In this document: one piece after another, positions 14,660-45,778 of the stretch | How the letters are laid out: each line of letters begins with the position of its first letter | Position numbering within the stretch: position 1 is the first letter of the stretch | NCBI GenBank assembly: GCA_000004985.1 | Contig: GG738868.1 | DNA from: Naegleria gruberi | Lineage: Eukaryota | Reading direction: 5' to 3' (one strand) | Length of the DNA: 64,000 nucleotides | Translations under genes and position numbers: made by a program | Notes under the pieces: model-generated | Database searches by the model: none | What the model saw: only the letters and a program-made list of their open reading frames with translations | Told to the model about the DNA's origin: nothing

Positions 14660-15831
14660 AAGTAATAGTTTTATATTTTAATCATTTCTCAATAATTTTT
14701 TGCACTTTCTTGTGGTATGGTTTTGTATCTTCATTTGATTTCATTTTTATTTTTCAAAAATATTTTGTAATTCCTTTTTTGGAAGCCTCAGAAGAACCAT
14801 CATTTTTTTCACATCCCCTGTACTTTAATTTTCCAAACATTCTCAACCCAAAATCAATTCATCTCTCCACAAACTATTCTCCACCTTCACTTTCACCGAA
14901 ATATCAATTCTACCATTCATCCTTTATCTCGCTCAATTTTAATACAACCAATCAAGCATACTTCAATATTTTGTAAAAATAGCAAAAAAACGCCATACGC
15001 TCGAGTTATTACTTGTTCTTTCCCGCCAAAATCTCAGTTAGTATTTGTGGTAAGTGAGAGGACAACTCATTCTTGGTTTTGGTGTCACTCATCTCTATGA
15101 GATCTTGCAAACTGGAATGCAATCACTCTGTAGATGCAACGATATCTACAGAAATTTTACATTTTCCTCAACAAAATCTTGATAAACTTAGAGATAAATC
15201 TTTAGCCTATACTTTAATGCACTTTCTTCAAGTGTTTATTACAGTTTGTTGTCATGTAACAATATTTGGAATAGAGCACGAATCTTGATTGAGTCACTAA
15301 GTTTTCCTTCTTTACAAAAACCAAGCATATCAAAAAATCCCTGCCTAAATTGTTCCTAATTTTTGCTCTTCAACATTTGATTGGATCTTCAAAAAGAGAC
15401 TGGACGAATTGAATAGAGACACACTCATTACCGACTTTTGATGCTATCAATACACTTGTCTCAAAACTATTTCACATCTTCTATATACTTCATACAAAAC
15501 TTATTCGAAACATATTGTTAAAACTAATCAACATTATCCTTCTCGTTGTATGGAATCTGATACTCCCAATTGATGAACCTGTATTGTCAATTGACTGCTC
15601 CACTACATCGAAATAGTAAAGAGTTATTCTTTCAACATCCAAAATGTCACCCAAACCGCTAATTCAAATGACTTTCTTCTTCGCATCAGTGATTCGACAT
15701 GCTCGTGTCACCAATCCCCCATCATTTCACAACTAGTAATGTGTTCTCTCTGCTGAGCAATATTTAAAATGTCACTCGAGCCAACTGCCAATCAAATCAT
15801 CCACATAAAAAAATTCACAATTTATAACAAG

Positions 15832-17064
15832 ATGAATAAGACCCTCTTGTTCGCATTAGCCATGCTTTTCTGCATGGTTGCTTTCGTTTCTGCTGGTCCA
15901 TCTGCCAGTGCTGAAACTCTCGCTGCCACCACATTGTGCAACACTTTAGGAAATAAAACTAAAGGATGTGTCAAGTCATCTAGAAAACTCTTGAAAAGAG
16001 TTCCAAAGAATAAGAGAAGACAAGTTAAGAGATTGTTAAAGAAGGCCAGAAAGAATGCTCGTAAAGCAAAGAAACAACAAAGAAAGCTCAGAAAATTGAG
16101 AAGATGTGCCAAGAAGGCTAAATCTTTGAAGAAGAGAAGACAATGTAGAAGAGCATTGAAGAAGGTTGTTAAGAAGATCAAGAAGGCTAGACGTGCTGCT
16201 AGAAGAGCTGCCAAGAAGGCTGCTAAGAAGGCTAGAAAGGCCAGAAGATCTGCTAGACGTGCTGCTAGAAGAAAGGCCAGAAAAGCTTTGAAGAAGGCTA
16301 AGAAATCCTTGAAGAAGAGAAGAGCTTTGAAGAGAGCTGTCAGAAAGGGTAGAAAGTTCGGAAGAAAGGTCAGAAAGGTCAGAAAGTGTAAGAGATCTTC
16401 CTCAAGAAAGACCAGACGTGCTGCCAAGAGAAGAGTCAAGAAGGCAGTTAAGAAGGCTTTGAGAAAGTTGAAGAAACAATTGAAGAAGGCTAGAAAGGTT
16501 GCTAAGAAGGCTGCCAAGAAGGCTAGAAAGGCTAGAAGATTGAGAAGAAGACCAGCTAGAAAATGTAGACGTGTCTCAAAGAAGTCCATTAAGAGAGCTG
16601 TTAAGAGAGTTGTCAAGAGAGCTGTTAAGAAGGCTACTTTGAAGCTCAGAAAGCAATTGAAGAAGGCTAAGAAGCAAGTCAAGAAGGCTAGAAAGGTTGC
16701 CAAGAAGGCTGTTAAGAAGGCCAGAAAGGTTGTCAAGAAGGTCAAGAAGACTTGTAGAAGAAAGGTCAAGAAGGCTGCCAAGAAGATTGCTAAGAGAAGA
16801 TCTGCTGCCAAGAAGGTCGTCTTGAAGAAGGCTGCTGCTAAAAAGTTGAACAAGGTTGTTAACAAGTTGTTGAAATTGAAGAAGAAGCTCGGTAAGAGAT
16901 TCAACCCAAAGAAACACATCCCAAAGAAGGTTAGAAAGGTCTTGAGAAAATTGAGAATTTCTGCCAAGTGTGTCAAGAAGGTCAAGAAGGCTGCCAAGAA
17001 GGTTAAGGTCTCAAAGGCTTTGTTGAACAAGTTGAGAAAGGTTTCTTCCAAGTGTAGAAAGTAA
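15832..17064 (+). CDS. Secreted polycationic K/R/A-rich repeat protein (signal peptide + ~380 aa of lysine/arginine/alanine-rich low complexity with ~10 spaced Cys)
   Basis: ATG at 15832 begins MNKTLLFALAMLFCMVAFVSAGPSASA, a classical signal peptide. The rest is almost entirely KKA(R/K)K, RRA and KKV-type units with periodic Cys. Codon usage differs sharply from neighbouring genes: Lys is AAG, Arg is AGA, Ala is GCT, Leu is TTG and Val is GTC/GTT, and GC is higher. The antisense ORF 15822..17090 is a complement artifact. Confidence 0.7.
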   Translation: MNKTLLFALAMLFCMVAFVSAGPSASAETLAATTLCNTLGNKTKGCVKSSRKLLKRVPKNKRRQVKRLLKKARKNARKAKKQQRKLRKLRRCAKKAKSLKKRRQCRRALKKVVKKIKKARRAARRAAKKAAKKARKARRSARRAARRKARKALKKAKKSLKKRRALKRAVRKGRKFGRKVRKVRKCKRSSSRKTRRAAKRRVKKAVKKALRKLKKQLKKARKVAKKAAKKARKARRLRRRPARKCRRVSKKSIKRAVKRVVKRAVKKATLKLRKQLKKAKKQVKKARKVAKKAVKKARKVVKKVKKTCRRKVKKAAKKIAKRRSAAKKVVLKKAAAKKLNKVVNKLLKLKKKLGKRFNPKKHIPKKVRKVLRKLRISAKCVKKVKKAAKKVKVSKALLNKLRKVSSKCRK

Positions 17065-34103: not shown

Positions 34104-37100
34104 TTAAATGCCAATTTTTAAGGACTTGCCAAGATTATTTTGTGAAAAATCAAAAACTTGTGAAAAGAATTCATATTCACTAGTCAATACAAATCTTGAA
34201 AAGGTATCAGAAAGATTCATAATGACATTATCTCTCAAATTCAAAAAACATTCATCAGCTTGTTCTTTCATTGGATTATTCTGCTTTAAATCAACCATTT
34301 CACTCTCTTGATTATTAGAAACTTGAAGCAGTTTCTTAAACTCTTTCGAACAAGAAGATGGAATATTAACTTCCATTTCAGAACCATTCTTGATATAGGT
34401 ATTGTAAATTCTTTCAATGAAATTGTTGATATCGTTTGCATTATTCGAATCCAATTTCTCCTTCTCTTGCAAATCCAAAAACAAGTACAAATTTTCAACA
34501 CTAAATTCCTTCCTGCAAAAAGCTTCAAATATTTCTCTTCCATATGAGTTTCCAATCAATTCCAACATTTCTCTATTTTCTTCTTGATCAGAAACCAGAG
34601 TTTCTGGAACTTTTCTCAATTTGAACCTAATCTTATTCGAAATGATAATCAATAGAGAATATCCACCAAACACCAGAATATAAACAGCCACATAGACCAC
34701 TTCAAATATGAATGCAATCACATCATTGGTCAGAACATTTCTATAACTCTGTTCATTATCATATCTGAAAGGAAGTGTACTCATTCCCAATGATTGATTT
34801 ACAATCAACAAGATGAAAAACACAATGTACAATAACATTTCACCTCTGAAATAGAGTGGTGTATCCATTGAGATGAGCCATTTGTGAATTCCCATTGAGG
34901 AAATTTTTTCCTTAACGATTTGTAAATCAACTTTTGTCTTTTTTGTTTCTTCTATTGATTTCTTATTGGACGAATGTTGCTTAATCATGGAATAAATGAA
35001 ATCCACAACTGCAGTGCCTGAAATGACAAGACTCAATGCAAATATGATAATAATATATGAAATGGAAATGATATAGGTATAGGCAGTAAGTGAAATGACA
35101 TCACATCTTCTTAAAATAACCCACAATGTCCAATAAAGTAAATTCAAAATGACAAATGTCAACAGAATGGAATTAACAACCTTTTTAGATGTGAATCTTT
35201 TAAGGTTTTTCAATAAACTTGATTGTGAAATATTGGATTGACTCTTTCTTAGTTGATGGAGAATATTGTAAAGATATTTCATTAATTGGAATCTCAATAC
35301 TTGAATGAGGTATGCAAGAATTGCTGTTAAATTCAAAGTATTTACAAAAATCATTACAATATTTGCAATCCAATTAGCAGCAAGATCACCACTTGACCAA
35401 TTCGTTGAATCTTTAAATAATTGATCAACTAGAACACTTCTCTGAATAATATAGATCAATAAACTTTCCACCATTAAGGCAATCATTCCCAAATAAGGAG
35501 TTGATAATCTAGAAATCAAAGGTTGACTTTTTCTAAATATTATCATTAAAATCAACACAGTGATTGAAATGATAAAGTAGAAAATACCCAAAGAAATTTG
35601 CCCATAATAAAGAGAAGCAACTTGACGTTTCGTATTATCACTTAGTGGAATAGTCTTTTGTTCGAGGAAGGTTGTAAAGAGTGTTGTGTGATTGCAAGCA
35701 CATTGAACAATTCTAGTTTCTAAATTGAAAGAATAGAGATAACATCCCTCATCACTCCAGGTTCCTGAACTTTCTTCCAAATAAGTACATGTGAAATTGT
35801 AATTGGAAGAATTTTGTAATTTTTCAAGAATGTTTTGATCCGTCAATTTGAATTCAATGATAATTGGATTGGCAAGATTCTCCAATTTTACCACTTTTTG
35901 ATTCTTTAAAAATTTGAAATCTGTTGTAATTGAAATTCCTTCACTTGTTCCATTATTATTCGAATAAGAATTGTTGAAAAGATTCGAATAGGTTAATAAA
36001 GAAACAGCACATTCACTGGAATAGGCAACATTTTGTGAAATGATATAAGAAGCATTAAAGGAAACACTTGTTTGATCTTGTTCCACTTTTTGGTTGACCA
36101 ATTGAGTGGAAGCACTTGAAATTACAAAAGCTGAAATTGTCATGTTAATATTCGATGAGGAATATGAGCTAACCACCAAACTACCATCATTAGTATCCAC
36201 ATACGTGACCAATTGACCAAGAATAATAAGATCAGCCAAATTCTGAGCTAATTCTCTTGAATTTGACAGTAAAAGTTCAGCACCAAGAAATTGAGAAGCA
36301 TACGAAAGGATTGAATTGACATTGCTGTTGGAAATCTTTGAATTAACATATCCATAGCTTGATTTACTTGTATTGTAACGGTTATACGAGTAGGATACAA
36401 GTTCTGATAATTTCGATAATGTAGTATTAGCAATAGTTTCGTCCAATTGAGTTTTTGAAATAATTTCTGAAAGACTTGACAAGGCAGATGAAGGATCACT
36501 TCCGCTAACATCTATATTACTCAATAAAGAAGCATAATACGTTGTAGATGAAGAGAATGACACGTCATAAATCAATGAAGTAATCAAATTGAAGTTTGTT
36601 CCAGAATTTGAAGAAATTTTTGAATATTCTTCCATGGTTCCATTGAAAAAAGCGACAAGTATGGATAATGATGAAGATTTGGAGTAATAATTGCCCAAAC
36701 TATCCATTACAATGATTCCCAATGAAATAGTTTCGCCAACATTCGGTAAAACAATTGACCGATTCAAATCCTGTGAAAAATCAGTAATTCTAATGGAACT
36801 TAGTTTTGAACTTGAGAATGTAATGGCATATTTCAATGGAAGTAACATTGAATCTGCACTCCATGGATTAATATTCAAGTTTACAATTTCCTTAATTGCT
36901 GAACATTTGGTTGAATTTGAATTCAATAAATTGTTTGGTGATTTTGGAGGAATTCTGAATTGTAATTCGAAAGAGGAATATAAACTAACACTGTCTATTT
37001 GTAGAGAAGCAGTTGCAGTGGATGAAAATCCAAATGTTAATGATGTGAAATTCACTGAAATTTGATTGGAAATTGAAATTGTTGGGAAAAGTGTTAAAAT

Positions 37101-40100
37101 TCCACTTTGAGTATTTTGAATTGAAATTCCAGTAAATGTTTTTGCTGAATTGGAGATTTGAACAGTAAAAGTTACTACTGAGCTAGTGAGTTTCAAAGAA
37201 TCAATAATTGTTTGGTCAACTGAAAGTTTAGAAATAATCAAATCAAAATTAACAAGATCACTTTTCGCAATATAGTAAGAAGGAAGTCCTAGAATCGAAA
37301 AAGGTCTTTCACAAATTGAAGAATATGCATTACAATAGGGTGTGAGCTTTCGAATAACACTATTTTCAGTATCAGCAAAATATAGCTCACCACTTGGTCC
37401 AATAGAAACAGTTCCTGGAGCATTCAATGAAGCAAGTGAAGCTAATCCATTATCTCCTTTGTATCCATTCGAAAGAGTTCCTGCAATTGTATAAATTGTA
37501 CCGTTTGTCAACACTTTACGAATTCTATTGGTTTCGGATATATAAATTTCTCCTCCTGAACTAATCGAAACTCCCACAGGAAGACTCAATTTAGCTGTAG
37601 TAGCTAAACCATTATCTCCACCATAACCATTTGTTCCAGTTCCAGCAATTGTAGTTATAGTTCCATTTGTGAAAACCTTTCGAATACGATTATTGGAATA
37701 GTCTGCAATAATTAATTCACCATTTGAACTCACAGCTACATCCTTAGGATTATTCAACTGTGCACTAGTTGCCTGACCTCCATCTCCTGCATATCCACCA
37801 ATTCCATTTCCAGCAATTGTAATTATCGTTCCATTTGTGAAAATCTTTCGAATTCTATGATTACCTGTGTCAGCAATGTAAATTTCTCCACTATTCGAAA
37901 TATCAAATAAAGTTGATACTAAAAAAGCGTTGCTAGCATTCAATCCATCTCCTATTCCTCCAGCAATGGTAGAAACCATTCCAGTAGTTGCCAAAATTTT
38001 ACGAATCTTCCAAGAAGAAGTTGTTTCACAAACTATCAAATTTTCACTCGAATCAAAAGTCAAACCAACAGGGTAAGCAAAATTAGTAATTGATTCATGT
38101 AAACCATCGCCGTTATATTCACTTCGACCTGTTCCTGCTATATTGGAAATTATACCAGTAACGCTAGATATAACTCGAATACGATGATTGTAATTATCTG
38201 AAATGTAAATATCACCTGTTGAACTAATTGCAATTCCGGCTGGATAAGATAATTGTGCATTGGATGCTTTCCCACCATCTCCTCCATAGGTACAAGTACC
38301 TGCTTTACCAGATATGGTAGTAATGGTACCATTCGAATAAATTTTACGAATCACACAATATACTATATCGGTAAAATAAACATTTCCTGAATTGAATAAA
38401 ACTGAAGAAGGATAACCAATGGTTGCATTGGAACCCAATCCATTGTCACCACTAAATCCATTCGTTCCAGTTCCAGCAATTGTTACGATGGTTCCATTTG
38501 TGAAAATCTTTCGAATACGATAATTACCAGCATCTGCAATGTAAATTTCATTATTTGCACCAATGGAAACATCAACAGGACTATAAAGTGATGCATTTGC
38601 GGCATCTATTCCATCTCCATTGTAAATAGTGTTTCCATTTCCTGCAATGGTTGTAATTATTCCATTATTCGAAACTTTACGAATTCTATGATTACCATAA
38701 TCAGCAATGTATAATTCTCCACTAGAAGAAATGGCAATTCCATTTGGTCTATTCAAGCATGTATTCACAGCAAGTCCTCCATCTCCACAAAATCCTGCAG
38801 TACCATTACCAGCAATAGTTGTAATTATTCCATTATTAGAAACCTTTCGAATACGATGATTATTCATATCACTAATAATTAGTTCACCATTCGTAGAATT
38901 AATAACACAATGTGATGGATAGTTCATAATAGCACTGGTTGCTGGAATATTATCTCCATTGTAAAAGATAGCTCCTGCCAATTTAACAGCAGGTCCATAA
39001 TTTAGATTAACAATTCTATCAATATACGAAACACTATTGGAAGTGTACATGACGTACATGTCATTATTAAAGAATTTGATTGAATTTGGATTGGAATAGG
39101 TCTGTATAATCGTTGTGTATCCAACAGTTCCAGCAAGTGTTGTAATCAAATTGGAAGTTAAATTAATTTGTCTGAATTGACCACTGCTGTCAGCAAATGA
39201 CAATTGATTGTTATTTAAAGACATTGAGCCAATTGGAGAAATGAATGCTGGAATTGCTGGGACATTATTTCCAAAACTACTGGTTCCTCCTGCAATCGTT
39301 GTAATTTTTCCACTGGACGAAACCTTTCTAATTCTATTGTTATTACTATCGGCAATATAAAATTCATTATTTGACGAATCAATTGCAATTCCAACAGGAT
39401 TATTAAGGGTTGCAATGGTTGCATCAATACCGTCATAATTATAACCAGATTGTCCATCACCTGCAATACTTGAAATTATCCCACTAGTAGCCGAAACCTT
39501 TCTAATTCTTTGGTAACTATCAGAAAAGTATAAATCATTACTTTTAGTCAGTGCAACAGATAATGGAAATCGAATAGGTGCATTATTAGCTAGGCTTCCA
39601 TCTGGACTGTTTGCAGCCTCTCCAGTTCCTACAATAGTTACAATAGTTCCACTTGAATAAACCTTTCGAATACGATTATTCACTAAATCTGCAAAAACAA
39701 TATTACCATCCGAGTCAATAGCCACACCAAAAGGTGTATTCAACATGGCATTCACAGCTGGTCCTCCATCTCCTGAATATCCACCTGTTCCATTTCCTGC
39801 AATAGTTGTAATCATTCCATTATTCGAAATCTTTCGAATACGATTATTGAGAGTATCAGCAATAAATACTTCACCACCAGAAGAAACAGCAATACCAATA
39901 GGATAACCCAACTGAGCACTTGTAGCAGGGATATTATCTCCATTGTAATTTGGCTCACCATTTCCTGCAATGGTTGTGATGGTACCATTCGAATAAATTT
40001 TACGAATTCGATGATTTGCATAATCAGCAAAATATACTTCACCACTTGTTGGATGGAAAGCAACACCATGTGGACTATTTACTGTGGCTTTGGTAGCATC

Positions 40101-40442
40101 TATTCCGTCTCCGTTATATCCTGCTTGACCATTACCGGCTATTGTAGAAATAATTCCATTATTCGAAATCTTTCTAATACGATTGTTGAGAGTATCAGCA
40201 ATAACAATCACACCAGAATAATAGGCAACATCTCTAACAGAATTTAACAAGGCATTCACAGCTGGTAGTCCATCACCAACAGAATTTCCTCCACCAGCCA
40301 CAGTTGTAATGTTATACGAAACTACCGACGAAACCGATTGACCACTCACACAACAACATGCGAGAATCACCACAAAAAGACTCAACCACACATCATGGCG
40401 TGTCCTTATTGTCATTTCGTTTTTTTTGATGTTCAATGTCAT
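34104..40442 (-). CDS. Giant single-exon receptor: signal peptide + ~30 NHL repeats + Ser/Thr-rich stalk + GPS/GAIN-like motif + 7TM + C-terminal RGS domain
   Basis: 2112-aa uninterrupted ORF. A signal peptide is present (MTIRTRHDVWLSLFVVILACCCVSG; an alternative ATG lies 27 nt upstream). The unit NNRIRK(I/V)(S/F).NG.I(T/S)TIAG.G...GDGG.A..A.LN.P.GVA repeats about 30 times. A long S/T/N-rich region follows. CACNHTTLFTTF (C-x-C-x-H-x-T-x-F) sits immediately before 7 hydrophobic helices. The C-terminal REIFEAFCRKEFSVENLYLFLDLQEK...FVLTSEYEFF matches an RGS box. Confidence 0.75.
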   Translation of the reverse strand: MTLNIKKNEMTIRTRHDVWLSLFVVILACCCVSGQSVSSVVSYNITTVAGGGNSVGDGLPAVNALLNSVRDVAYYSGVIVIADTLNNRIRKISNNGIISTIAGNGQAGYNGDGIDATKATVNSPHGVAFHPTSGEVYFADYANHRIRKIYSNGTITTIAGNGEPNYNGDNIPATSAQLGYPIGIAVSSGGEVFIADTLNNRIRKISNNGMITTIAGNGTGGYSGDGGPAVNAMLNTPFGVAIDSDGNIVFADLVNNRIRKVYSSGTIVTIVGTGEAANSPDGSLANNAPIRFPLSVALTKSNDLYFSDSYQRIRKVSATSGIISSIAGDGQSGYNYDGIDATIATLNNPVGIAIDSSNNEFYIADSNNNRIRKVSSSGKITTIAGGTSSFGNNVPAIPAFISPIGSMSLNNNQLSFADSSGQFRQINLTSNLITTLAGTVGYTTIIQTYSNPNSIKFFNNDMYVMYTSNSVSYIDRIVNLNYGPAVKLAGAIFYNGDNIPATSAIMNYPSHCVINSTNGELIISDMNNHRIRKVSNNGIITTIAGNGTAGFCGDGGLAVNTCLNRPNGIAISSSGELYIADYGNHRIRKVSNNGIITTIAGNGNTIYNGDGIDAANASLYSPVDVSIGANNEIYIADAGNYRIRKIFTNGTIVTIAGTGTNGFSGDNGLGSNATIGYPSSVLFNSGNVYFTDIVYCVIRKIYSNGTITTISGKAGTCTYGGDGGKASNAQLSYPAGIAISSTGDIYISDNYNHRIRVISSVTGIISNIAGTGRSEYNGDGLHESITNFAYPVGLTFDSSENLIVCETTSSWKIRKILATTGMVSTIAGGIGDGLNASNAFLVSTLFDISNSGEIYIADTGNHRIRKIFTNGTIITIAGNGIGGYAGDGGQATSAQLNNPKDVAVSSNGELIIADYSNNRIRKVFTNGTITTIAGTGTNGYGGDNGLATTAKLSLPVGVSISSGGEIYISETNRIRKVLTNGTIYTIAGTLSNGYKGDNGLASLASLNAPGTVSIGPSGELYFADTENSVIRKLTPYCNAYSSICERPFSILGLPSYYIAKSDLVNFDLIISKLSVDQTIIDSLKLTSSVVTFTVQISNSAKTFTGISIQNTQSGILTLFPTISISNQISVNFTSLTFGFSSTATASLQIDSVSLYSSFELQFRIPPKSPNNLLNSNSTKCSAIKEIVNLNINPWSADSMLLPLKYAITFSSSKLSSIRITDFSQDLNRSIVLPNVGETISLGIIVMDSLGNYYSKSSSLSILVAFFNGTMEEYSKISSNSGTNFNLITSLIYDVSFSSSTTYYASLLSNIDVSGSDPSSALSSLSEIISKTQLDETIANTTLSKLSELVSYSYNRYNTSKSSYGYVNSKISNSNVNSILSYASQFLGAELLLSNSRELAQNLADLIILGQLVTYVDTNDGSLVVSSYSSSNINMTISAFVISSASTQLVNQKVEQDQTSVSFNASYIISQNVAYSSECAVSLLTYSNLFNNSYSNNNGTSEGISITTDFKFLKNQKVVKLENLANPIIIEFKLTDQNILEKLQNSSNYNFTCTYLEESSGTWSDEGCYLYSFNLETRIVQCACNHTTLFTTFLEQKTIPLSDNTKRQVASLYYGQISLGIFYFIISITVLILMIIFRKSQPLISRLSTPYLGMIALMVESLLIYIIQRSVLVDQLFKDSTNWSSGDLAANWIANIVMIFVNTLNLTAILAYLIQVLRFQLMKYLYNILHQLRKSQSNISQSSLLKNLKRFTSKKVVNSILLTFVILNLLYWTLWVILRRCDVISLTAYTYIISISYIIIIFALSLVISGTAVVDFIYSMIKQHSSNKKSIEETKKTKVDLQIVKEKISSMGIHKWLISMDTPLYFRGEMLLYIVFFILLIVNQSLGMSTLPFRYDNEQSYRNVLTNDVIAFIFEVVYVAVYILVFGGYSLLIIISNKIRFKLRKVPETLVSDQEENREMLELIGNSYGREIFEAFCRKEFSVENLYLFLDLQEKEKLDSNNANDINNFIERIYNTYIKNGSEMEVNIPSSCSKEFKKLLQVSNNQESEMVDLKQNNPMKEQADECFLNLRDNVIMNLSDTFSRFVLTSEYEFFSQVFDFSQNNLGKSLKIGI

Positions 40443-40883: not shown

Positions 40884-41678
40884 ATGAGCAAACAACAACA
40901 AAACAACGCCGACACTATCACTCTCTACGGCAATCACATTAGCCAACCATCCCGAGCCATAATGTGGTTCATGTTATTGAATCAAATTCCTCACGAATTT
41001 AAATTAATTAAATTGGAGAAGGGAGAACATTTGAAGCCGGAATATAAGGAAATTAATCCAATGCAACAAGTACCTTCATTATCCATTTCATCATCTACAT
41101 CATATTCGGATCAGAAGGTTACTGTTAATTTGTTTGAAAGTCAAGCAATTTTAATTCACTTGATACATAAATATAGAAGACAATACAAGATTGCTGATTC
41201 ATGGTATCCAAATCCACATTCTGAGTTGATGGTTCATACAAAGATTAATCAATATTTGAATTATCATTTAGCATCATTGAGGATGGGAATTGCTGGATGG
41301 GCTTGGGAAGCTGCTATTGGACCAAATGCTTTTGGCACTGAGAGAAGTGAAAGAAAAATTGAATCTTTCAAGAAGAAGGGAATGAAAGTATTGAAACAAC
41401 TTGATACCTATTGGTTGAAGAAACAAGATGAAAAATGTGGAGATTACTTGTGTGGACAAGAGAAAATGTCAATTGCTGACTTGTTATTGTACAGTGAATT
41501 GATGCAATTGTTGCTGATTGTTGAATCAGCCACATTGTGGGAATCTGACTTGTTGAAAGCCTTTCCAAATGTTGCTAAATGGGCACAAATCATGTCACAA
41601 ACTCCACACCACGATAAGATTTTCCAAATTCTCTTCTTGCTTAAAGCAAAGACCTCTTCAAAACCTTCCAAATTGTAA
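40884..41678 (+). CDS. Glutathione S-transferase (theta/zeta-like, thioredoxin-fold N-domain)
   Basis: ITLYGNHISQPSRAIMWFMLLNQIPHEFKLIKLEKGEHLKPEYKEINPMQQVPSL and ESQAILIHLIHKY match the GST N-terminal motifs. An alpha-helical C-domain follows. The ATG at 40884 follows an A-run. Confidence 0.7.
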   Translation: MSKQQQNNADTITLYGNHISQPSRAIMWFMLLNQIPHEFKLIKLEKGEHLKPEYKEINPMQQVPSLSISSSTSYSDQKVTVNLFESQAILIHLIHKYRRQYKIADSWYPNPHSELMVHTKINQYLNYHLASLRMGIAGWAWEAAIGPNAFGTERSERKIESFKKKGMKVLKQLDTYWLKKQDEKCGDYLCGQEKMSIADLLLYSELMQLLLIVESATLWESDLLKAFPNVAKWAQIMSQTPHHDKIFQILFLLKAKTSSKPSKL

Positions 41679-41700
41679 AATAACTCATTGTAAAATTTAT

Positions 41701-43563
41701 TTACATGCTTACCCTGGTTGATTCTTGTTCACGTGAATTTGTCTTTCCAGATAGTGATGTAGCATAAATGTCAGTGGAATAATTCTGCTCATATGATGGA
41801 TTGGTAGTGGTTCCACTCGTTGTTGTGAACCCAGTTAATATTCCACTATTTTCACTATCCTCATTCAACAATTTACCATTCTTTCTATTCCTCAAATTAC
41901 GAATTGGATCAATAAGACGTTGATAACATTCAGAAAATTTGGACTTGTCGAAAATAATGATAATAATCACAACAAATGTGGAAATGTTTGCAAAATTACT
42001 GACAATTTCCAAATAGAAACTGCTGATGAAAAAGTAAGCATTGGTACCAAATTGTCTTCCAAGGAAATTGCACAAACAAGCAACCAATGAAACCAACGAA
42101 AGCCCACAATATAATGAGAATTGAAACATGTACTATATTTCAATATATTAAATTGGAAAATTCAATGAAATTCTTGCACGTACCTTTGATTTGTAAAATG
42201 AAATGTGAGTCTTTTCCTGCAATTGATCACCCAACTTTTTGGCAATGTAAATGAAAACTAAAAAGTTTACAATCCATGGCAGAGAATAAGACACATAGGA
42301 CATTCCAGTAAGGATAATATTGACCTGTTGTGTCTCCAATTCATAAATAAGATATGAAACAATGTAAATGGCACATAGTGAATTGCAAACAAAACTAAAC
42401 CCAATCAATATAAGAGCAACTAGGGAATTCTTATTATCTCCAGCTTTGAGGAATTGACAAATTCTATCAAAGACCAACAGAACAGCCAGGGAACCATAAT
42501 GTGTGAAAAAGACATTCAAACTCAAAGCAATTGACGTTGTAAAGTAGAGAGTATCAAAACTATCGTACGTAGGATTCCAAAACATCATACAGGCAACCAC
42601 AACACAAATTGATTGCAACAAGATGATTATTGCACACAAGGCATTCAAAACTCGTAGCTTTCTCCGTATAATCATGGTTACAAATTCAGGAACAACATAG
42701 CCCAATATTGCAAACGGACACAAAGGTATTGAAATAAGCAATGACAGAATAAACTTGATCATATTGACAGCATCAGTTCTCAATAGAGAATTCATCACTG
42801 GATCACATAAATTTGAATAGATATCAAACCTATGACAATAGCAAAGAAATGGCGTCCTCAATCTCTCAAAATATTGATCCATAAAATAGACAGGAAACCC
42901 TGTTTGAACAGCTTCACAAAAGAAGGAAGATGGAAATCGTGTAAAAGAAGGACACTTGGATTTCTTTGTATCCGAATAATTGTCCATATCAATAATTAAA
43001 GTATGAAATTCCAAAAAATCCTTTCCCTCACTACAATATTGACAATAGTTCAATAATTCGTATTTAACCGTACTATTTTCGCCATTACAAAATGTTTCTA
43101 CACAGCTCACATTAGAATATTTTGCACACAAATCAAAATGGTCTCCCATAGGTTTAACAGGAGAGAATAAATTAGAATTCCTATCCTCCACATAGGCAGT
43201 TCCAAATGGTATCGACATTATCTTATCTGGAAAGTACACTTGTCGACATCCAAATCCAAAAGGTAAATCATAAAACTCAATAAAATTATCATTAATAAAT
43301 ATCTTCCTACTCGTTCCATTATCCGATCGTTCTATATAGGAACAATCCATCCATCTGTAGAATACATCAGAAGATTCCCTTCCAATGACAAAATCCCCAA
43401 TAATAAAAATCATCATGATGGTCGAATACAATATTATTTTCATCAAGGAAATATTCTTCTTCATCAGCCTACTACTAGTACTATCAATGAAATTCTGATG
43501 ATGACCAGAAGCAACGGGTGCTCTTAAAAGTCGCGACATTTTTTTGTGGTTGTTTTTAACCAT
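41701..43563 (-). CDS. Cys-rich-ectodomain 7TM receptor-like protein, paralog A; 2 exons 42184..43563 and 41701..42132
   Basis: An N-terminal signal-anchor TM is followed by a Cys-rich ectodomain (DLPFGFGC, SIPFGT, CQYC, CPSF, FLCYCH) and then 7 TM helices. LVFDRICQFL lies after TM3. A 51-nt phase-0 intron 42133..42183 (GTACGT...TATAG) is present. The last exon aligns with the C-terminus of paralog B. Confidence 0.65.
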
Positions 43564-43768
43564 TACGGCAAATTTACGGAGCTTTTTTGGTTACTCCTTA
43601 GAATTTGGCAATTTTATTGTAAAGAGGAAGAAAGTACGTTCTTAGAGGAAAGGTTTTAAGTGGAGCACTTGGCTGTGCAAGGACAAATTAAATAACTCTT
43701 CCCATAAGTTTCCCAGAAGGTTCCATCTCAAAATTTAACATAAAAATCTTACAATATTTAGAAGATTT

Positions 43769-45778
43769 CTAGTTAATAGTTACATTGTTTGAGGATAATT
43801 CACTCACAAAGGATGTTGGGGTTGGTGGTACATAGTAAGAACTGTCTTTTCTATAGGTTTGATCTGAGTTGGTTGTTGAGTTGGTTGGTGGATAGGAAAC
43901 TGGAATTGAATTATTGTAATTTGTTTCTTCATTCGTTTCTTCGCTGGACAACAGAGAATCTTTGAGTTGATTATTATTCCTTCTACTATCGAATAATTTG
44001 AATAGTTGTAATATTGGTCTGTAACAATCGGTAAATAATTGAGAATCGTAGAGAATAACCAACATGATTAGAAGGGTTGAATAATTTGCAAATAGACTCA
44101 CTTGTTCAATATAGTAACTGAATTGATAAGTAGTAGAGTCGCTTCCAAATTGTCTTGCTAAAAATGCAGATAGACATGAGAATAAGGCAATACCTGACAA
44201 GGTGTTGAGGGCACAGAATTGATAGAAATACTTGGTTTTGAAAAATGGAACATTTGTCTTATTTCTAAGGGCCTTTCTCAATCGATATGATAAAACGAAA
44301 AACAACATCAAGTTATCAATCCATGGAATGGCAAAAGCAATATAACCAATCGCAACAACAATTGTTGCAATGGTTAGTCCTATTTTGGAAAATTCTAAAA
44401 TGTAACTTGTTGTCACATAAACTGCATTGATTGTCAATAAGATAAATGCCATCAAAATCATAATCTTGAACTTTGGACAATTACGTTTCTCTCCCGTATA
44501 TAAATAATTGTAAATTCTATCAAAGGTTAACATGACTGGTAACATGGAATAATAAGTGAAAAAGACATTGAAAGAGAGTGCCATATTTGAAAGGGTAGTG
44601 TTTTCAGATTCACCCAAGTAAGCAACAGCATACATGACACTTGAAATGACAACAGAACTAGATGCTGCCAATATAGTTAAAATACTGCAAGTATTGAGAA
44701 TGCCAATTTTTCTAACTCTTGATACTTGTCTAATTTGTGGAATTACATAGGTTATCAATGCTCCTAAGGCCAAAGAAGTGGAAAATAATATTGAAACGAC
44801 AATCTTGGCAAAATCAAATGCTGTGGTGAATAAAGATGAGTCACACATTGAATTAAAAGTTGAATATGTATGACAAAAGCAAAAGAATGGATTCCTTAAC
44901 CGTATGTAAAAACTATCCAAAAAATACAAGGGAAGGCCAGTTTGAATATTTCCACAATAGAAAGCTGATGGGAAAGTGGCAAATGCAGGACATTCAACAT
45001 TTCTAGAGGTAGTTTCATTTACTACAGCATCCTCTCTGTAATAAATCTTGTACTGAAATTGCAAAAAATCCTCCCTATTGTTCTTGCAATATTTACAATA
45101 ATTGAAAATTTCATACTTGTATGGATCTACACTTCCTAGAGATGAATTAGAGTAGCAAAAATAATCCATACAGCTGACATTTGAATATTTCTGACAAATA
45201 TCAATATTAACTCTACCAGGTTTAATTGGCGAAAATATGTCACTATTTCTTTCATTCATATGTTGAGTGCCAAAAGGTATTGATGTAATACTAGGTAATT
45301 TGACAACTTTACATCCAAATCCAAAAGGAAGGTCCTTAATACGAGGTAAATTACTCTTACTTATTGGAACAGTCTCAGTAGCTCCATTCAATAAAGGCCT
45401 CTCATACGAACAATCTTCAAATAGATTGAACACTTGCGCTGAAGATGATGGTAAAGTTCGTTCTCTCCCAGTTGCTACTTTACTTTCAATATTCTCTCCT
45501 TTAATTTGGGTCAATGTTGAAATATGATGCTGCCGATCATCAAATAGTTTCGTCGTTAAAGATGAATTTGTAGTATTCATTATAAATTGCATAATAGCTA
45601 GTGTACATAAACTCGACATGATGAAAATTACTAAAATTATTAACCAGCCGATGGGCAGTCGATGATTATTATTATCATTGTCATCATTATGCACAATAAT
45701 GGCAGACTTTTGTGAGATGGGCACTTCAACACTATTCACAACGATCCCCACACAATTATTGTTGTTATTATTATTCAT
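43769..45778 (-). CDS. Cys-rich-ectodomain 7TM receptor-like protein, paralog B (single exon)
   Basis: 669 aa with the same architecture and motifs as paralog A (DLPFGFGC, SIPFGT, CKYC, CPAF, FFCFCH). LTFDRIYNYL (DRY-like) lies after TM3. The N-terminus is poly-N and the C-tail is S/T/N-rich. Confidence 0.65.
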   Translation of the reverse strand: MNNNNNNNCVGIVVNSVEVPISQKSAIIVHNDDNDNNNHRLPIGWLIILVIFIMSSLCTLAIMQFIMNTTNSSLTTKLFDDRQHHISTLTQIKGENIESKVATGRERTLPSSSAQVFNLFEDCSYERPLLNGATETVPISKSNLPRIKDLPFGFGCKVVKLPSITSIPFGTQHMNERNSDIFSPIKPGRVNIDICQKYSNVSCMDYFCYSNSSLGSVDPYKYEIFNYCKYCKNNREDFLQFQYKIYYREDAVVNETTSRNVECPAFATFPSAFYCGNIQTGLPLYFLDSFYIRLRNPFFCFCHTYSTFNSMCDSSLFTTAFDFAKIVVSILFSTSLALGALITYVIPQIRQVSRVRKIGILNTCSILTILAASSSVVISSVMYAVAYLGESENTTLSNMALSFNVFFTYYSMLPVMLTFDRIYNYLYTGEKRNCPKFKIMILMAFILLTINAVYVTTSYILEFSKIGLTIATIVVAIGYIAFAIPWIDNLMLFFVLSYRLRKALRNKTNVPFFKTKYFYQFCALNTLSGIALFSCLSAFLARQFGSDSTTYQFSYYIEQVSLFANYSTLLIMLVILYDSQLFTDCYRPILQLFKLFDSRRNNNQLKDSLLSSEETNEETNYNNSIPVSYPPTNSTTNSDQTYRKDSSYYVPPTPTSFVSELSSNNVTIN

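What the first reader, a model, noticed from the sequence alone, without database searches (positions are those of the whole stretch)
41701..45778. Tandem pair of paralogous Cys-rich-ectodomain 7TM receptors with a DRY-like motif, forming a receptor cluster with the NHL-7TM-RGS gene and a GST
Two adjacent minus-strand genes share an architecture and conserved motifs: a signal-anchor, a Cys-rich ectodomain (DLPFGFGC...SIPFGT...CxYC...CP(A/S)F...F(F/L)C(F/Y)CH), then 7 TM. After TM3 they read LTFDRIYNYL and LVFDRICQFL, which resemble the class-A GPCR E/DRY position. One paralog has a 51-nt intron and the other is intron-less, so the duplication and intron gain or loss are recent enough to align. 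Together with the giant NHL-GPS-7TM-RGS gene (34.1-40.4 kb) and the GST at 40.9-41.7 kb, they form a 12-kb block of three same-strand receptor genes. I do not recognise the ectodomain family.
Basis: partly seen in the sequence, partly recalled or inferred. Interest (0 to 1): 0.7.

Follow-up and report, generated by a model that had tools for sequence, protein, structure and literature searches.

The report
Orphan Naegleria cysteine-rich 7TM receptor pair
Two neighbouring Naegleria gruberi genes are old duplicates from a small, undescribed, apparently Naegleria-restricted family of surface proteins with a disulfide-rich outer domain on a GPCR-like seven-helix bundle, which makes them candidate receptors whose ligand and signalling partner are unknown.

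Summary
Window 41701-45778 (minus strand) carries two homologous genes of Naegleria gruberi. Gene A is NAEGRDRAFT_67575, 669 aa and intron-less. Gene B is NAEGRDRAFT_67574, here re-modelled to 603 aa with a 51-nt GT..AG intron. They share 37% identity (E 7e-90). Each has an N-terminal anchor, a Cys-rich glycosylatable ectodomain, seven TM helices with a clear positive-inside bias, and FDR at the cytoplasmic end of TM3.

They belong to an undescribed family. It has no Pfam or PDB sequence match. A search of 1.84 billion cluster representatives found 23, all Naegleria or unnamed environmental eukaryotes, with about 6-7 paralogues in N. gruberi.

- FDR is confined to one subgroup, so it is not a family hallmark.
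- The intron is ancestral and gene A lost it.
- The duplication is old (dS is saturated).
- The "receptor cluster" with the NHL-GPS-7TM-RGS gene is not supported. Their 7TM domains are unrelated, and the syntenic N. fowleri locus has one family gene and no RGS or GST neighbour.

Best reading: an orphan surface receptor family, possibly G-protein-linked. Interest is moderate.

The parts
43769..45778 (-). Gene A (NAEGRDRAFT_67575), intron-less CDS, 669 aa plus stop
   Evidence: ORF. 100% identical to the public N. gruberi protein.
45581..45652 (-). Gene A N-terminal hydrophobic signal-anchor (residues 43-66)
   Evidence: Kyte-Doolittle peak of 2.61. Helix in the AF2 model. Distant relatives have classical short signal peptides at this position.
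44822..45580 (-). Gene A Cys-rich ectodomain (residues 67-319): 12 Cys, 5 N-x-S/T sequons, and the motifs FGFGC, NYCKYC (CxxC) and CFC...CD (CxC)
   Evidence: Ten Cys are invariant in all 20 family sequences. This is the most conserved region of the family (mean BLOSUM62 sum-of-pairs score 1.28).
44045..44821 (-). Gene A seven-helix core (residues 320-578)
44516..44524 (-). Gene A FDR triplet at the cytoplasmic end of TM3 (residues 419-421)
   Evidence: Conserved only in subgroup I.
42184..43563 (-). Gene B exon 1 (residues 1-460): anchor, ectodomain, TM1-TM5 and ICL3
   Evidence: The public model XP_002677177.1 starts at Met116 and runs into the intron.
42133..42183 (-). Gene B intron, 51 nt, GTACGT...ATATAG, phase 0, between ICL3 and TM6
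   Evidence: There are introns at the homologous site in P0003 (134 nt), P0010 (76 nt), P0032 (157 nt) and P0020.
41701..42132 (-). Gene B exon 2 (residues 461-603 plus stop): TM6, TM7 and the C-terminal tail
   Evidence: 35% identity to the C-terminal part of A, E 2e-13.
42463..42471 (-). Gene B FDR triplet (residues 365-367)
40884..41678 (+). Context only: glutathione S-transferase gene, convergent with B (stop codons 22 nt apart)
   Evidence: Pfam GST_N and GST_C. ATG position. Absent from the syntenic N. fowleri locus.
34104..40442 (-). Context only: NHL-repeat / GPS / 7TM / RGS gene, 2112 aa. Not homologous to A or B.
   Evidence: Pfam NHL x11, GPS and RGS. hhalign finds no homology to the family.

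Best explanation
A and B are two old tandem paralogues of a small orphan family of surface membrane proteins. The family has been found only in Naegleria and in a few unnamed environmental eukaryotes.

Shown: each protein is inserted by an N-terminal signal or anchor. Each exposes a roughly 200-250-residue glycosylatable domain held by about six disulfides, with invariant CxxC and CxC motifs. This domain sits directly on a seven-helix bundle with N-out / C-in topology and a GPCR/rhodopsin-like predicted fold.

Inferred: the conserved ectodomain is the ligand- or contact-sensing module. The seven-helix bundle passes the signal to a conserved cytoplasmic surface made of ICL1, ICL2, the family-wide L-K-K-x-S-D-[IV] motif of ICL3, and an FDxxxFxxxY helix after TM7. 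The most likely partner is a heterotrimeric G protein. Naegleria has conventional slow-exchange G-alpha subunits but only one recognisable GPCR. In subgroup I (A and B) the TM3 FDR triplet may play the role of DRY.
For: - Homology and gene structures.
- Family size and restriction: 23 representatives among 1.84 billion, and every named one is Naegleria.
- Topology: 1 + 7 hydrophobic segments in most complete members. Classical signal peptides in distant members. K+R 14 inside against 2 outside, with N-x-S/T sequons in the ectodomain and ECL1.
- Conservation pattern: ectodomain (1.28) > ICL3 (0.95) = TM7 (0.95, only 13 columns scored) > helix 8 (0.82) > ICL1 and ICL2 (0.6-0.7) > the other six TM helices (0.2-0.5) > ECL1 and ECL2 (negative). 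This is what is expected if binding is by the ectodomain and a conserved partner docks on the cytoplasmic face.
- No charged or polar TM residue is invariant across the family. The only TM residue present in at least 19 of 20 sequences is Pro347.
- Literature: N. fowleri has one cAR-like candidate GPCR, unassigned 7TM proteins, arrestin-like genes, and G-alpha subunits that need an exchange factor (PMC9283941).
- Weak lead: an RGS-domain gene lies within two genes of a family member at 3 of 8 loci examined.
Against: - No sequence profile links the family to any GPCR class (Pfam, 16 members, E up to 10; PDB sequences).
- The model is shallow (5 sequences, mean pLDDT 55).
- FDR is subgroup-specific. 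NPxxY, CWxP and the TM3-ECL2 disulfide are absent.
- The ectodomain fold could not be modelled (pLDDT 36).
- The RGS adjacency is not significant when all neighbours within 10 kb are counted: 3 of about 112 genes against 1.0 expected, P about 0.08. It is also absent from the orthologous N. fowleri locus.
- There are no expression, localisation or binding data.
Confidence: 0.55

Rival explanations
1. The proteins are endocytic, sorting or adhesion receptors that do not use G proteins. The Cys-rich domain binds cargo, prey or substrate. The protein cycles through the endocytic or phagocytic system via adaptor complexes, as GOLD-domain seven-helix (GOST) proteins, Wntless or lysosomal seven-helix proteins do.
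For: - All seven complete distant members end in a YxxPhi motif within the last 4-10 residues (YSLV, YQQI, YSKM, YSEF, YYLL, YSQM, YTRF). The Tyr column is at least 90% conserved in an otherwise unconserved tail.
- The architecture, a luminal domain on a seven-helix bundle, is the same as in GOST proteins.
- No GPCR signature motifs are conserved across the family.
Against: - A and B themselves lack a canonical YxxPhi (YYVP, YATS) and instead end in a subgroup-specific (N/R)V(S/T)(M/I) tail.
- There is no Pfam match to Lung_7-TM_R, GOLD or Wntless.
- YxxPhi motifs also drive ordinary internalisation of signalling receptors, so the motif does not exclude signalling.
Confidence: 0.25
2. The pair, the GST and the NHL-GPS-7TM-RGS gene form a functional, co-regulated receptor cluster.
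For: - The three minus-strand membrane-protein genes lie within 12 kb.
- Family members also sit next to a GPS-7TM-RGS gene in N. lovaniensis (L002) and next to a soluble double-RGS gene on an environmental contig (L001).
Against: - The 7TM domains are not homologous.
- The orthologous N. fowleri locus (L007) is syntenic with window 48.7-64 kb, yet it carries one family gene and no RGS or GST neighbour. An inversion breakpoint lies between B and the GST.
- The L002 7TM-RGS gene is a different paralogue from the window gene: the N. fowleri protein P0045 is 31% identical to the window gene and 25% to L002.
- Four further loci have no RGS neighbour.
- RGS genes are very common in Naegleria, 108 in N. 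fowleri (PMC9283941).
- The rest of the neighbourhood is unrelated: lipin, Sel1, RCC1-like and SPRY genes.
Confidence: 0.1
3. The seven-helix core is a transporter, channel or membrane enzyme, and the Cys-rich domain is a regulatory or metal-binding cap. The invariant CxxC and CxC motifs would bind metal.
For: - The invariant N-Y-C-x-Y-C and C-x-C motifs resemble metal- or redox-active motifs.
Against: - No charged, His or other polar TM residue is conserved across the family. Six of the seven TM helices (0.2-0.5) score below every cytoplasmic segment (0.6-0.95); TM7 (0.95, 13 columns) is the exception.
- There is no retinal-binding Lys position and no PAQR His/Asp motif.
- There is no Pfam transporter or enzyme hit, only single-member stray matches with E above 0.01.
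- The even Cys count and extracellular location fit structural disulfides.
Confidence: 0.07

Closest known systems
Class A (rhodopsin-like) GPCRs
Frizzled / Smoothened (class F) and Dictyostelium Frizzled-like receptors
   Same: The architecture: a Cys-rich extracellular domain (about 10-12 Cys) joined by a short linker to a seven-helix bundle.
   Different: No match to the Pfam Fz or Frizzled profiles. hhalign against a genuine Naegleria Fz-domain protein (L002 3465-4052) finds nothing. No KTxxxW motif after TM7. The Cys spacing differs, with CxxC and CxC.
Naegleria / plant seven-transmembrane RGS proteins (Nf 7TM RGS1-28, AtRGS1) and adhesion GPCRs
   Same: Large ectodomain plus seven helices in the same organism. 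One such gene is the neighbour in the window. The juxtamembrane C-x-C-H motif before TM1 lies where the GPS C-x-C-x-H-T-T motif lies, and it is the only hhalign match, though a very weak one (probability 2.9%).
   Different: No RGS domain and no GPS profile match in A or B. The 7TM domains are not detectably homologous. No H-L/T-T cleavage site.
GOLD-domain seven-transmembrane (GOST) proteins: TMEM87, GPR107/108, GPR180, Wntless
   Same: A luminal N-terminal domain on a GPCR-like bundle with no GPCR motifs. The C-terminal sorting-type motifs in distant members suggest trafficking.
   Different: No Lung_7-TM_R or GOLD profile match. None appear among the top structural matches. The ectodomain is far richer in Cys, and its fold is unresolved.
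Fungal Pth11-like CFEM-domain 7TM receptors
   Same: A lineage-restricted family that joins a small multi-Cys extracellular domain containing a CxC motif to seven helices. (This resemblance is from my own knowledge.)
   Different: No CFEM profile match. The ectodomain here is about three times longer. No taxonomic overlap.

Membership tests
Class A rhodopsin-like GPCR (Pfam 7tm_1) | Significant match to the 7tm_1 sequence profile | tested here: not met
   hmmscan of A, B and 14 relatives against Pfam-A found no GPCR family even at E up to 10.
Class A rhodopsin-like GPCR (Pfam 7tm_1) | E/DRY at the cytoplasmic end of TM3, conserved across the family | tested here: inconclusive
   FDR is at the right position in A, B, P0002, P0003 and P0005. 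It is replaced by W/F plus variable residues in 13 other members.
Class A rhodopsin-like GPCR (Pfam 7tm_1) | NPxxY in TM7, CWxP in TM6 and the TM3-ECL2 disulfide | tested here: not met
   TM7 reads QVSLFANYSTLLIMLVILY and TM6 reads YQFCALNTLSGIALFSCLSAFLA. ECL1 and ECL2 contain no Cys.
GPCR superfamily in the broad sense | Seven-helix bundle, N-terminus outside, C-terminus inside, GPCR-like helix packing | tested here: met
GPCR superfamily in the broad sense | Catalyses nucleotide exchange on a heterotrimeric G protein or recruits arrestin | not testable with these tools
   This needs biochemistry. Only context is available (PMC9283941).
Frizzled / class F | Fz cysteine-rich domain and Frizzled 7TM profile | tested here: not met
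   No Pfam Fz or Frizzled hit. hhalign against a Naegleria Fz-domain protein gives probability 0.1%.
Adhesion GPCR / 7TM-RGS | GAIN/GPS autoproteolysis motif before TM1, and (for 7TM-RGS) a C-terminal RGS domain | tested here: not met
   No GPS or RGS profile hit in A or B, whereas the neighbouring gene has both. Profile-profile probability is 2.9% over 20 columns.
GOST / LUSTR (TMEM87, GPR107/108) | Luminal GOLD beta-sandwich plus the Lung_7-TM_R profile | tested here: inconclusive
   The sequence profiles are not met. The ectodomain fold could not be modelled (pLDDT 36), and the AFDB library was unavailable.
The undescribed Naegleria Cys-rich 7TM family defined here | Ten invariant ectodomain Cys including N-Y-C-x-Y-C and C-x-C...C-D just before TM1. 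[ILV]-P at the cytoplasmic end of TM1. Seven helices. A basic, Ser/Thr-containing ICL3 motif followed by a phase-0 intron site. | tested here: met
   A and B carry every invariant residue. HMM E-values to relatives range from 1e-19 to 1e-4 and better. B keeps the intron and A has lost it.

The most novel reading that the evidence does not exclude
The family is a previously unrecognised class of G-protein-coupled receptors specific to Heterolobosea. Its novel disulfide-rich ligand-binding domain would supply the missing exchange factors for the conventional, slow-exchange G-alpha subunits of Naegleria, which so far have only one recognisable GPCR. The subgroup-I FDR triplet and the family-wide ICL3 motif would form the coupling surface.
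Probability: 0.2. Interest if true: 0.75.

Novelty: new variant of a known kind. Interest (0 to 1): 0.4.

Why it matters
Naegleria has an unusually rich G-protein system: many G-alpha subunits, 108 RGS proteins and arrestin-like genes. Yet it has only one recognisable GPCR (PMC9283941). An orphan family of about 6-7 ectodomain-bearing seven-helix proteins per genome, conserved between N. gruberi and the brain-eating N. fowleri, gives concrete candidates for how these amoebae sense prey, surfaces or hosts. Because the family has no detected human relative, it could also serve as a selective surface target in N. fowleri.

More modestly, the work corrects the public model of NAEGRDRAFT_67574. It also documents a clean case of intron loss in one copy of an old tandem duplicate.

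Tried and rejected
1. Pfam scans of A, B and 14 relatives found no family. The stray single-member hits (THH1_TOM1-3 at E 0.024, others weaker) were rejected as noise.
2. Searches of PDB sequences with profiles A1 and A3 found nothing below E 0.15.
3. The word-index homologue search with the 16-sequence profile returned only 2 proteins and was uninformative. With the 7TM-RGS tail as query it returned 1 protein.
4. AlphaFold of the ectodomain alone gave pLDDT 36 and is unusable, so it was not sent to a fold search.
5. The afdb50 fold library was not available.
6. dN/dS between A and B: dS is 1.6-2.0 and 64-71% of four-fold sites differ. This is saturated, so the ratio (about 0.24-0.57, depending on the region) is not trustworthy.
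7. Homology between the pair and the 7TM of the NHL-7TM-RGS gene was rejected.
8. A relationship of the ectodomain to the Frizzled CRD was rejected.
9. Conserved synteny of the pair with the RGS gene was rejected using the N. fowleri locus L007. The L002 7TM-RGS gene is a different paralogue.
10. Look-ups of the genomic context of the N. gruberi paralogues P0012 and P0013, and of P0001, P0002 and P0045, failed because they are not on record.
11. Literature searches for the locus tags and for any description of the family found nothing.
Full report
**What is there**

The window is Naegleria gruberi DNA. Gene A is a 669-aa uninterrupted ORF at 43769..45778 on the minus strand. It is 100% identical to XP_002677178.1 / NAEGRDRAFT_67575, annotated only as 'predicted protein'.

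Gene B lies 205 nt downstream on the same strand. Its exon 1 is 43563..42184. A 51-nt intron (GTACGT...ATATAG, phase 0) occupies 42183..42133. Exon 2 is 42132..41701. The product is 603 aa. The public model of B (XP_002677177.1 / NAEGRDRAFT_67574, 356 aa) starts at internal Met116 and reads through the intron. The model given here is supported by homology to A and to the N. fowleri protein on both sides.

A and B are 37% identical over 419 residues (E 7e-90). The second exon adds 35% identity over 89 residues (E 2e-13). No third copy lies in the window.

**Anatomy**

Hydropathy gives one N-terminal hydrophobic segment and seven further helices after the last ectodomain Cys. This holds for A, B and most complete relatives. 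AlphaFold2 draws the same seven helices plus a helix after TM7.

In A the three cytoplasmic loops carry 14 Lys+Arg and the three outer loops carry 2. The region between the anchor and TM1 holds 12 Cys and five N-x-S/T sequons, and ECL1 has one more. Distant relatives begin with short classical signal peptides. The Cys-rich domain is therefore extracellular or luminal, and the C-terminus is cytoplasmic.

FDR sits at the cytoplasmic end of TM3 in both genes (A 44516-44524, B 42463-42471).

**The family**

Pfam-A has no match for A, B or 14 relatives, even at E up to 10. Profiles of the family find nothing among PDB sequences.

An exhaustive HMM search of 1.84 billion cluster representatives found 23 proteins at E of 1e-3 or better. 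Every named one is from N. gruberi, N. fowleri or N. lovaniensis. The rest come from unnamed metagenome or read-archive assemblies with eukaryotic gene structure.

N. gruberi has at least six or seven loci: 67575, 67574, 73843, 63548, 72913 and 73520/76743. N. lovaniensis has three members in tandem on one contig, so tandem duplication recurs in the family.

Ten ectodomain Cys are invariant in all 20 aligned sequences. They include N-Y-C-x-Y-C (a CxxC motif) and C-x-C...C-D just before TM1. A Pro at the cytoplasmic end of TM1 is present in 19 of 20 sequences.

Mean column conservation (BLOSUM62 sum of pairs) is:
- ectodomain 1.28
- ICL3 0.95
- TM7 0.95 (only 13 columns scored)
- helix after TM7 0.82
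- ICL1 0.71
- ICL2 0.64
- the other six TM helices 0.2-0.5
- ECL1 and ECL2 negative

ICL3 holds a family-wide L-K-K-x-S-D-[IV]-x-F type motif.

1. The 'DRY-like' FDR is conserved only in subgroup I (A, B, N. fowleri P0002, N. lovaniensis P0003, environmental P0005). The other members have W/F followed by variable residues. NPxxY, CWxP and the TM3-ECL2 disulfide are absent.

2. The intron between ICL3 and TM6 is ancestral. A phase-0 GT..AG intron lies at the homologous codon boundary in P0003 (134 nt), P0010 (76 nt), P0032 (157 nt) and the environmental P0020. Gene A lost it, as did P0021 independently.

3. The duplication is old. dS is 1.6-2.0, with 64-71% of four-fold sites different, which is saturated. 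dN is 0.63 overall, 0.48 in the ectodomain and 0.67 in the 7TM region. A, B and the N. fowleri orthologue are about equidistant at 34-38% identity, whereas N. fowleri and N. lovaniensis orthologues are 65% identical. The N. fowleri locus L007 is syntenic with window 48.7-64 kb and holds a single family gene. Either the duplication happened on the N. gruberi branch and A then diverged fast, or N. fowleri lost a copy. The data do not decide between these.

4. The 'cluster' is not supported:
   - The GST is on the plus strand, convergent with B.
   - The 7TM region of the NHL-GPS-7TM-RGS gene shows no homology to the family.
   - The N. fowleri syntenic locus has neither an RGS nor a GST neighbour. 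An inversion breakpoint falls between B and the GST.

A weak lead does remain. In N. lovaniensis, P0003 is divergently adjacent to a GPS-7TM-RGS gene. This is a different paralogue from the window gene: the N. fowleri protein P0045 is 31% identical to the window gene and 25% to the L002 gene. On an environmental contig, a family member sits 219 nt from a soluble double-RGS gene. The other five loci have none.

RGS genes make up about 1% of Naegleria genes. The count of 108 in N. fowleri is from PMC9283941, and the total gene number is from my own memory. Counting all neighbours within 10 kb gives 3 of about 112 genes against 1.0 expected (P about 0.08). Counting only neighbours within two genes gives P about 0.003, but that distance was chosen after the fact.

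**Fold**

The full-length model, built from a 5-sequence alignment, has mean pLDDT 55. Block means in the helical core are mostly 55-80, and the ectodomain is poor.

The ectodomain modelled alone gave pLDDT 36, so its fold is unknown. hhalign against a genuine Naegleria Fz domain is negative.

**Interpretation**

Shown:
- The genes belong to a lineage-restricted family of proteins with an extracellular disulfide-rich domain seated directly on a seven-helix bundle.
- The ectodomain framework and the cytoplasmic face are conserved.
- Six of the seven TM helices and the outer loops are variable (TM7 is the exception), and no TM residue is polar or charged and invariant.

Inferred: the ectodomain senses a ligand or surface, and the bundle relays this to a conserved cytoplasmic partner. 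I consider a heterotrimeric G protein the most likely partner. Naegleria has exchange-factor-dependent G-alpha subunits, arrestin-like genes and only one recognisable GPCR (PMC9283941). This step is untested.

The main rival is a non-G-protein endocytic, sorting or adhesion receptor. It is suggested by YxxPhi motifs at the extreme C-terminus of all seven complete distant members, although A and B themselves lack the canonical form. A transporter or enzyme reading is unlikely given the conservation pattern.

**Novelty and score**

The genes are in public databases as 'predicted proteins'. No paper in the searchable library mentions them or the family.

Lineage-specific orphan seven-helix families are common in protists, so a specialist would not be very surprised. 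The family does, however, offer concrete candidates for the missing receptors of the Naegleria G-protein system.

I rate it a new variant of a known kind, with interest 0.4.

Noticed in passing
window 15769-17064 (+): The ORF has a classical signal peptide (MNKTLLFALAMLFCMVAFVSAGPSASA). About 400 residues of almost pure Lys/Arg/Ala follow, built from degenerate 12/21/33/54-nt repeats. Locally GC rises to 0.415 with a strong purine skew. It may be a secreted polycationic protein.
   Followed up: partly
window 41701-43563 (-): The public gene model of B (XP_002677177.1, 356 aa) is wrong at both ends. It starts at internal Met116 and reads through the 51-nt intron into a stop, so it loses the anchor, part of the ectodomain, and TM6, TM7 and the tail.
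   Followed up: yes
family alignment; A residues about 640-669, window 43772-43860: All seven complete distant family members end in a YxxPhi sorting-type motif within the last 4-10 residues. Subgroup I keeps the Tyr but adds a tail ending in (N/R)VSM, or NVTIN in A.
   Followed up: partly
A residues 296-313, window 44840-44893; L002 and window GPS motifs: The invariant juxtamembrane motif P-F-x-C-Y-C-H...Y...C-D lies just before TM1, where adhesion-GPCR and 7TM-RGS proteins carry the GPS motif C-x-C-x-H-T-T. It is the only segment hhalign pairs between the two families. The match is very weak (probability 2.9%).
   Followed up: partly
L003 5855-11591 (N. lovaniensis PYSW02000009.1): Three family members lie in head-to-tail tandem (579, 592 and 504 aa). 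Tandem arrays of this family are therefore not unique to the N. gruberi window.
   Followed up: partly
L002 3465-4052 (-) (N. lovaniensis PYSW02000020.1): A small secreted protein with a Frizzled-type cysteine-rich (Fz) domain lies next to a GPS-7TM-RGS gene, which is itself divergently adjacent to family member P0003.
   Followed up: no
P0038 (N. fowleri FDP41_009793) versus L002 10001-13063: The 732-aa N. fowleri model appears to fuse a family member with the downstream O-methyltransferase. In N. lovaniensis these are two separate genes. It also lacks TM2-TM4. This is probably a mis-annotation.
   Followed up: partly
window 41678-41701, and window about 41.7-53.7 kb versus L007: The stop codons of B and the GST are convergent and only 22 nt apart. 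Relative to N. fowleri, the block from A/B to the 52-53.7 kb gene is inverted, with one breakpoint between B and the GST.
   Followed up: partly
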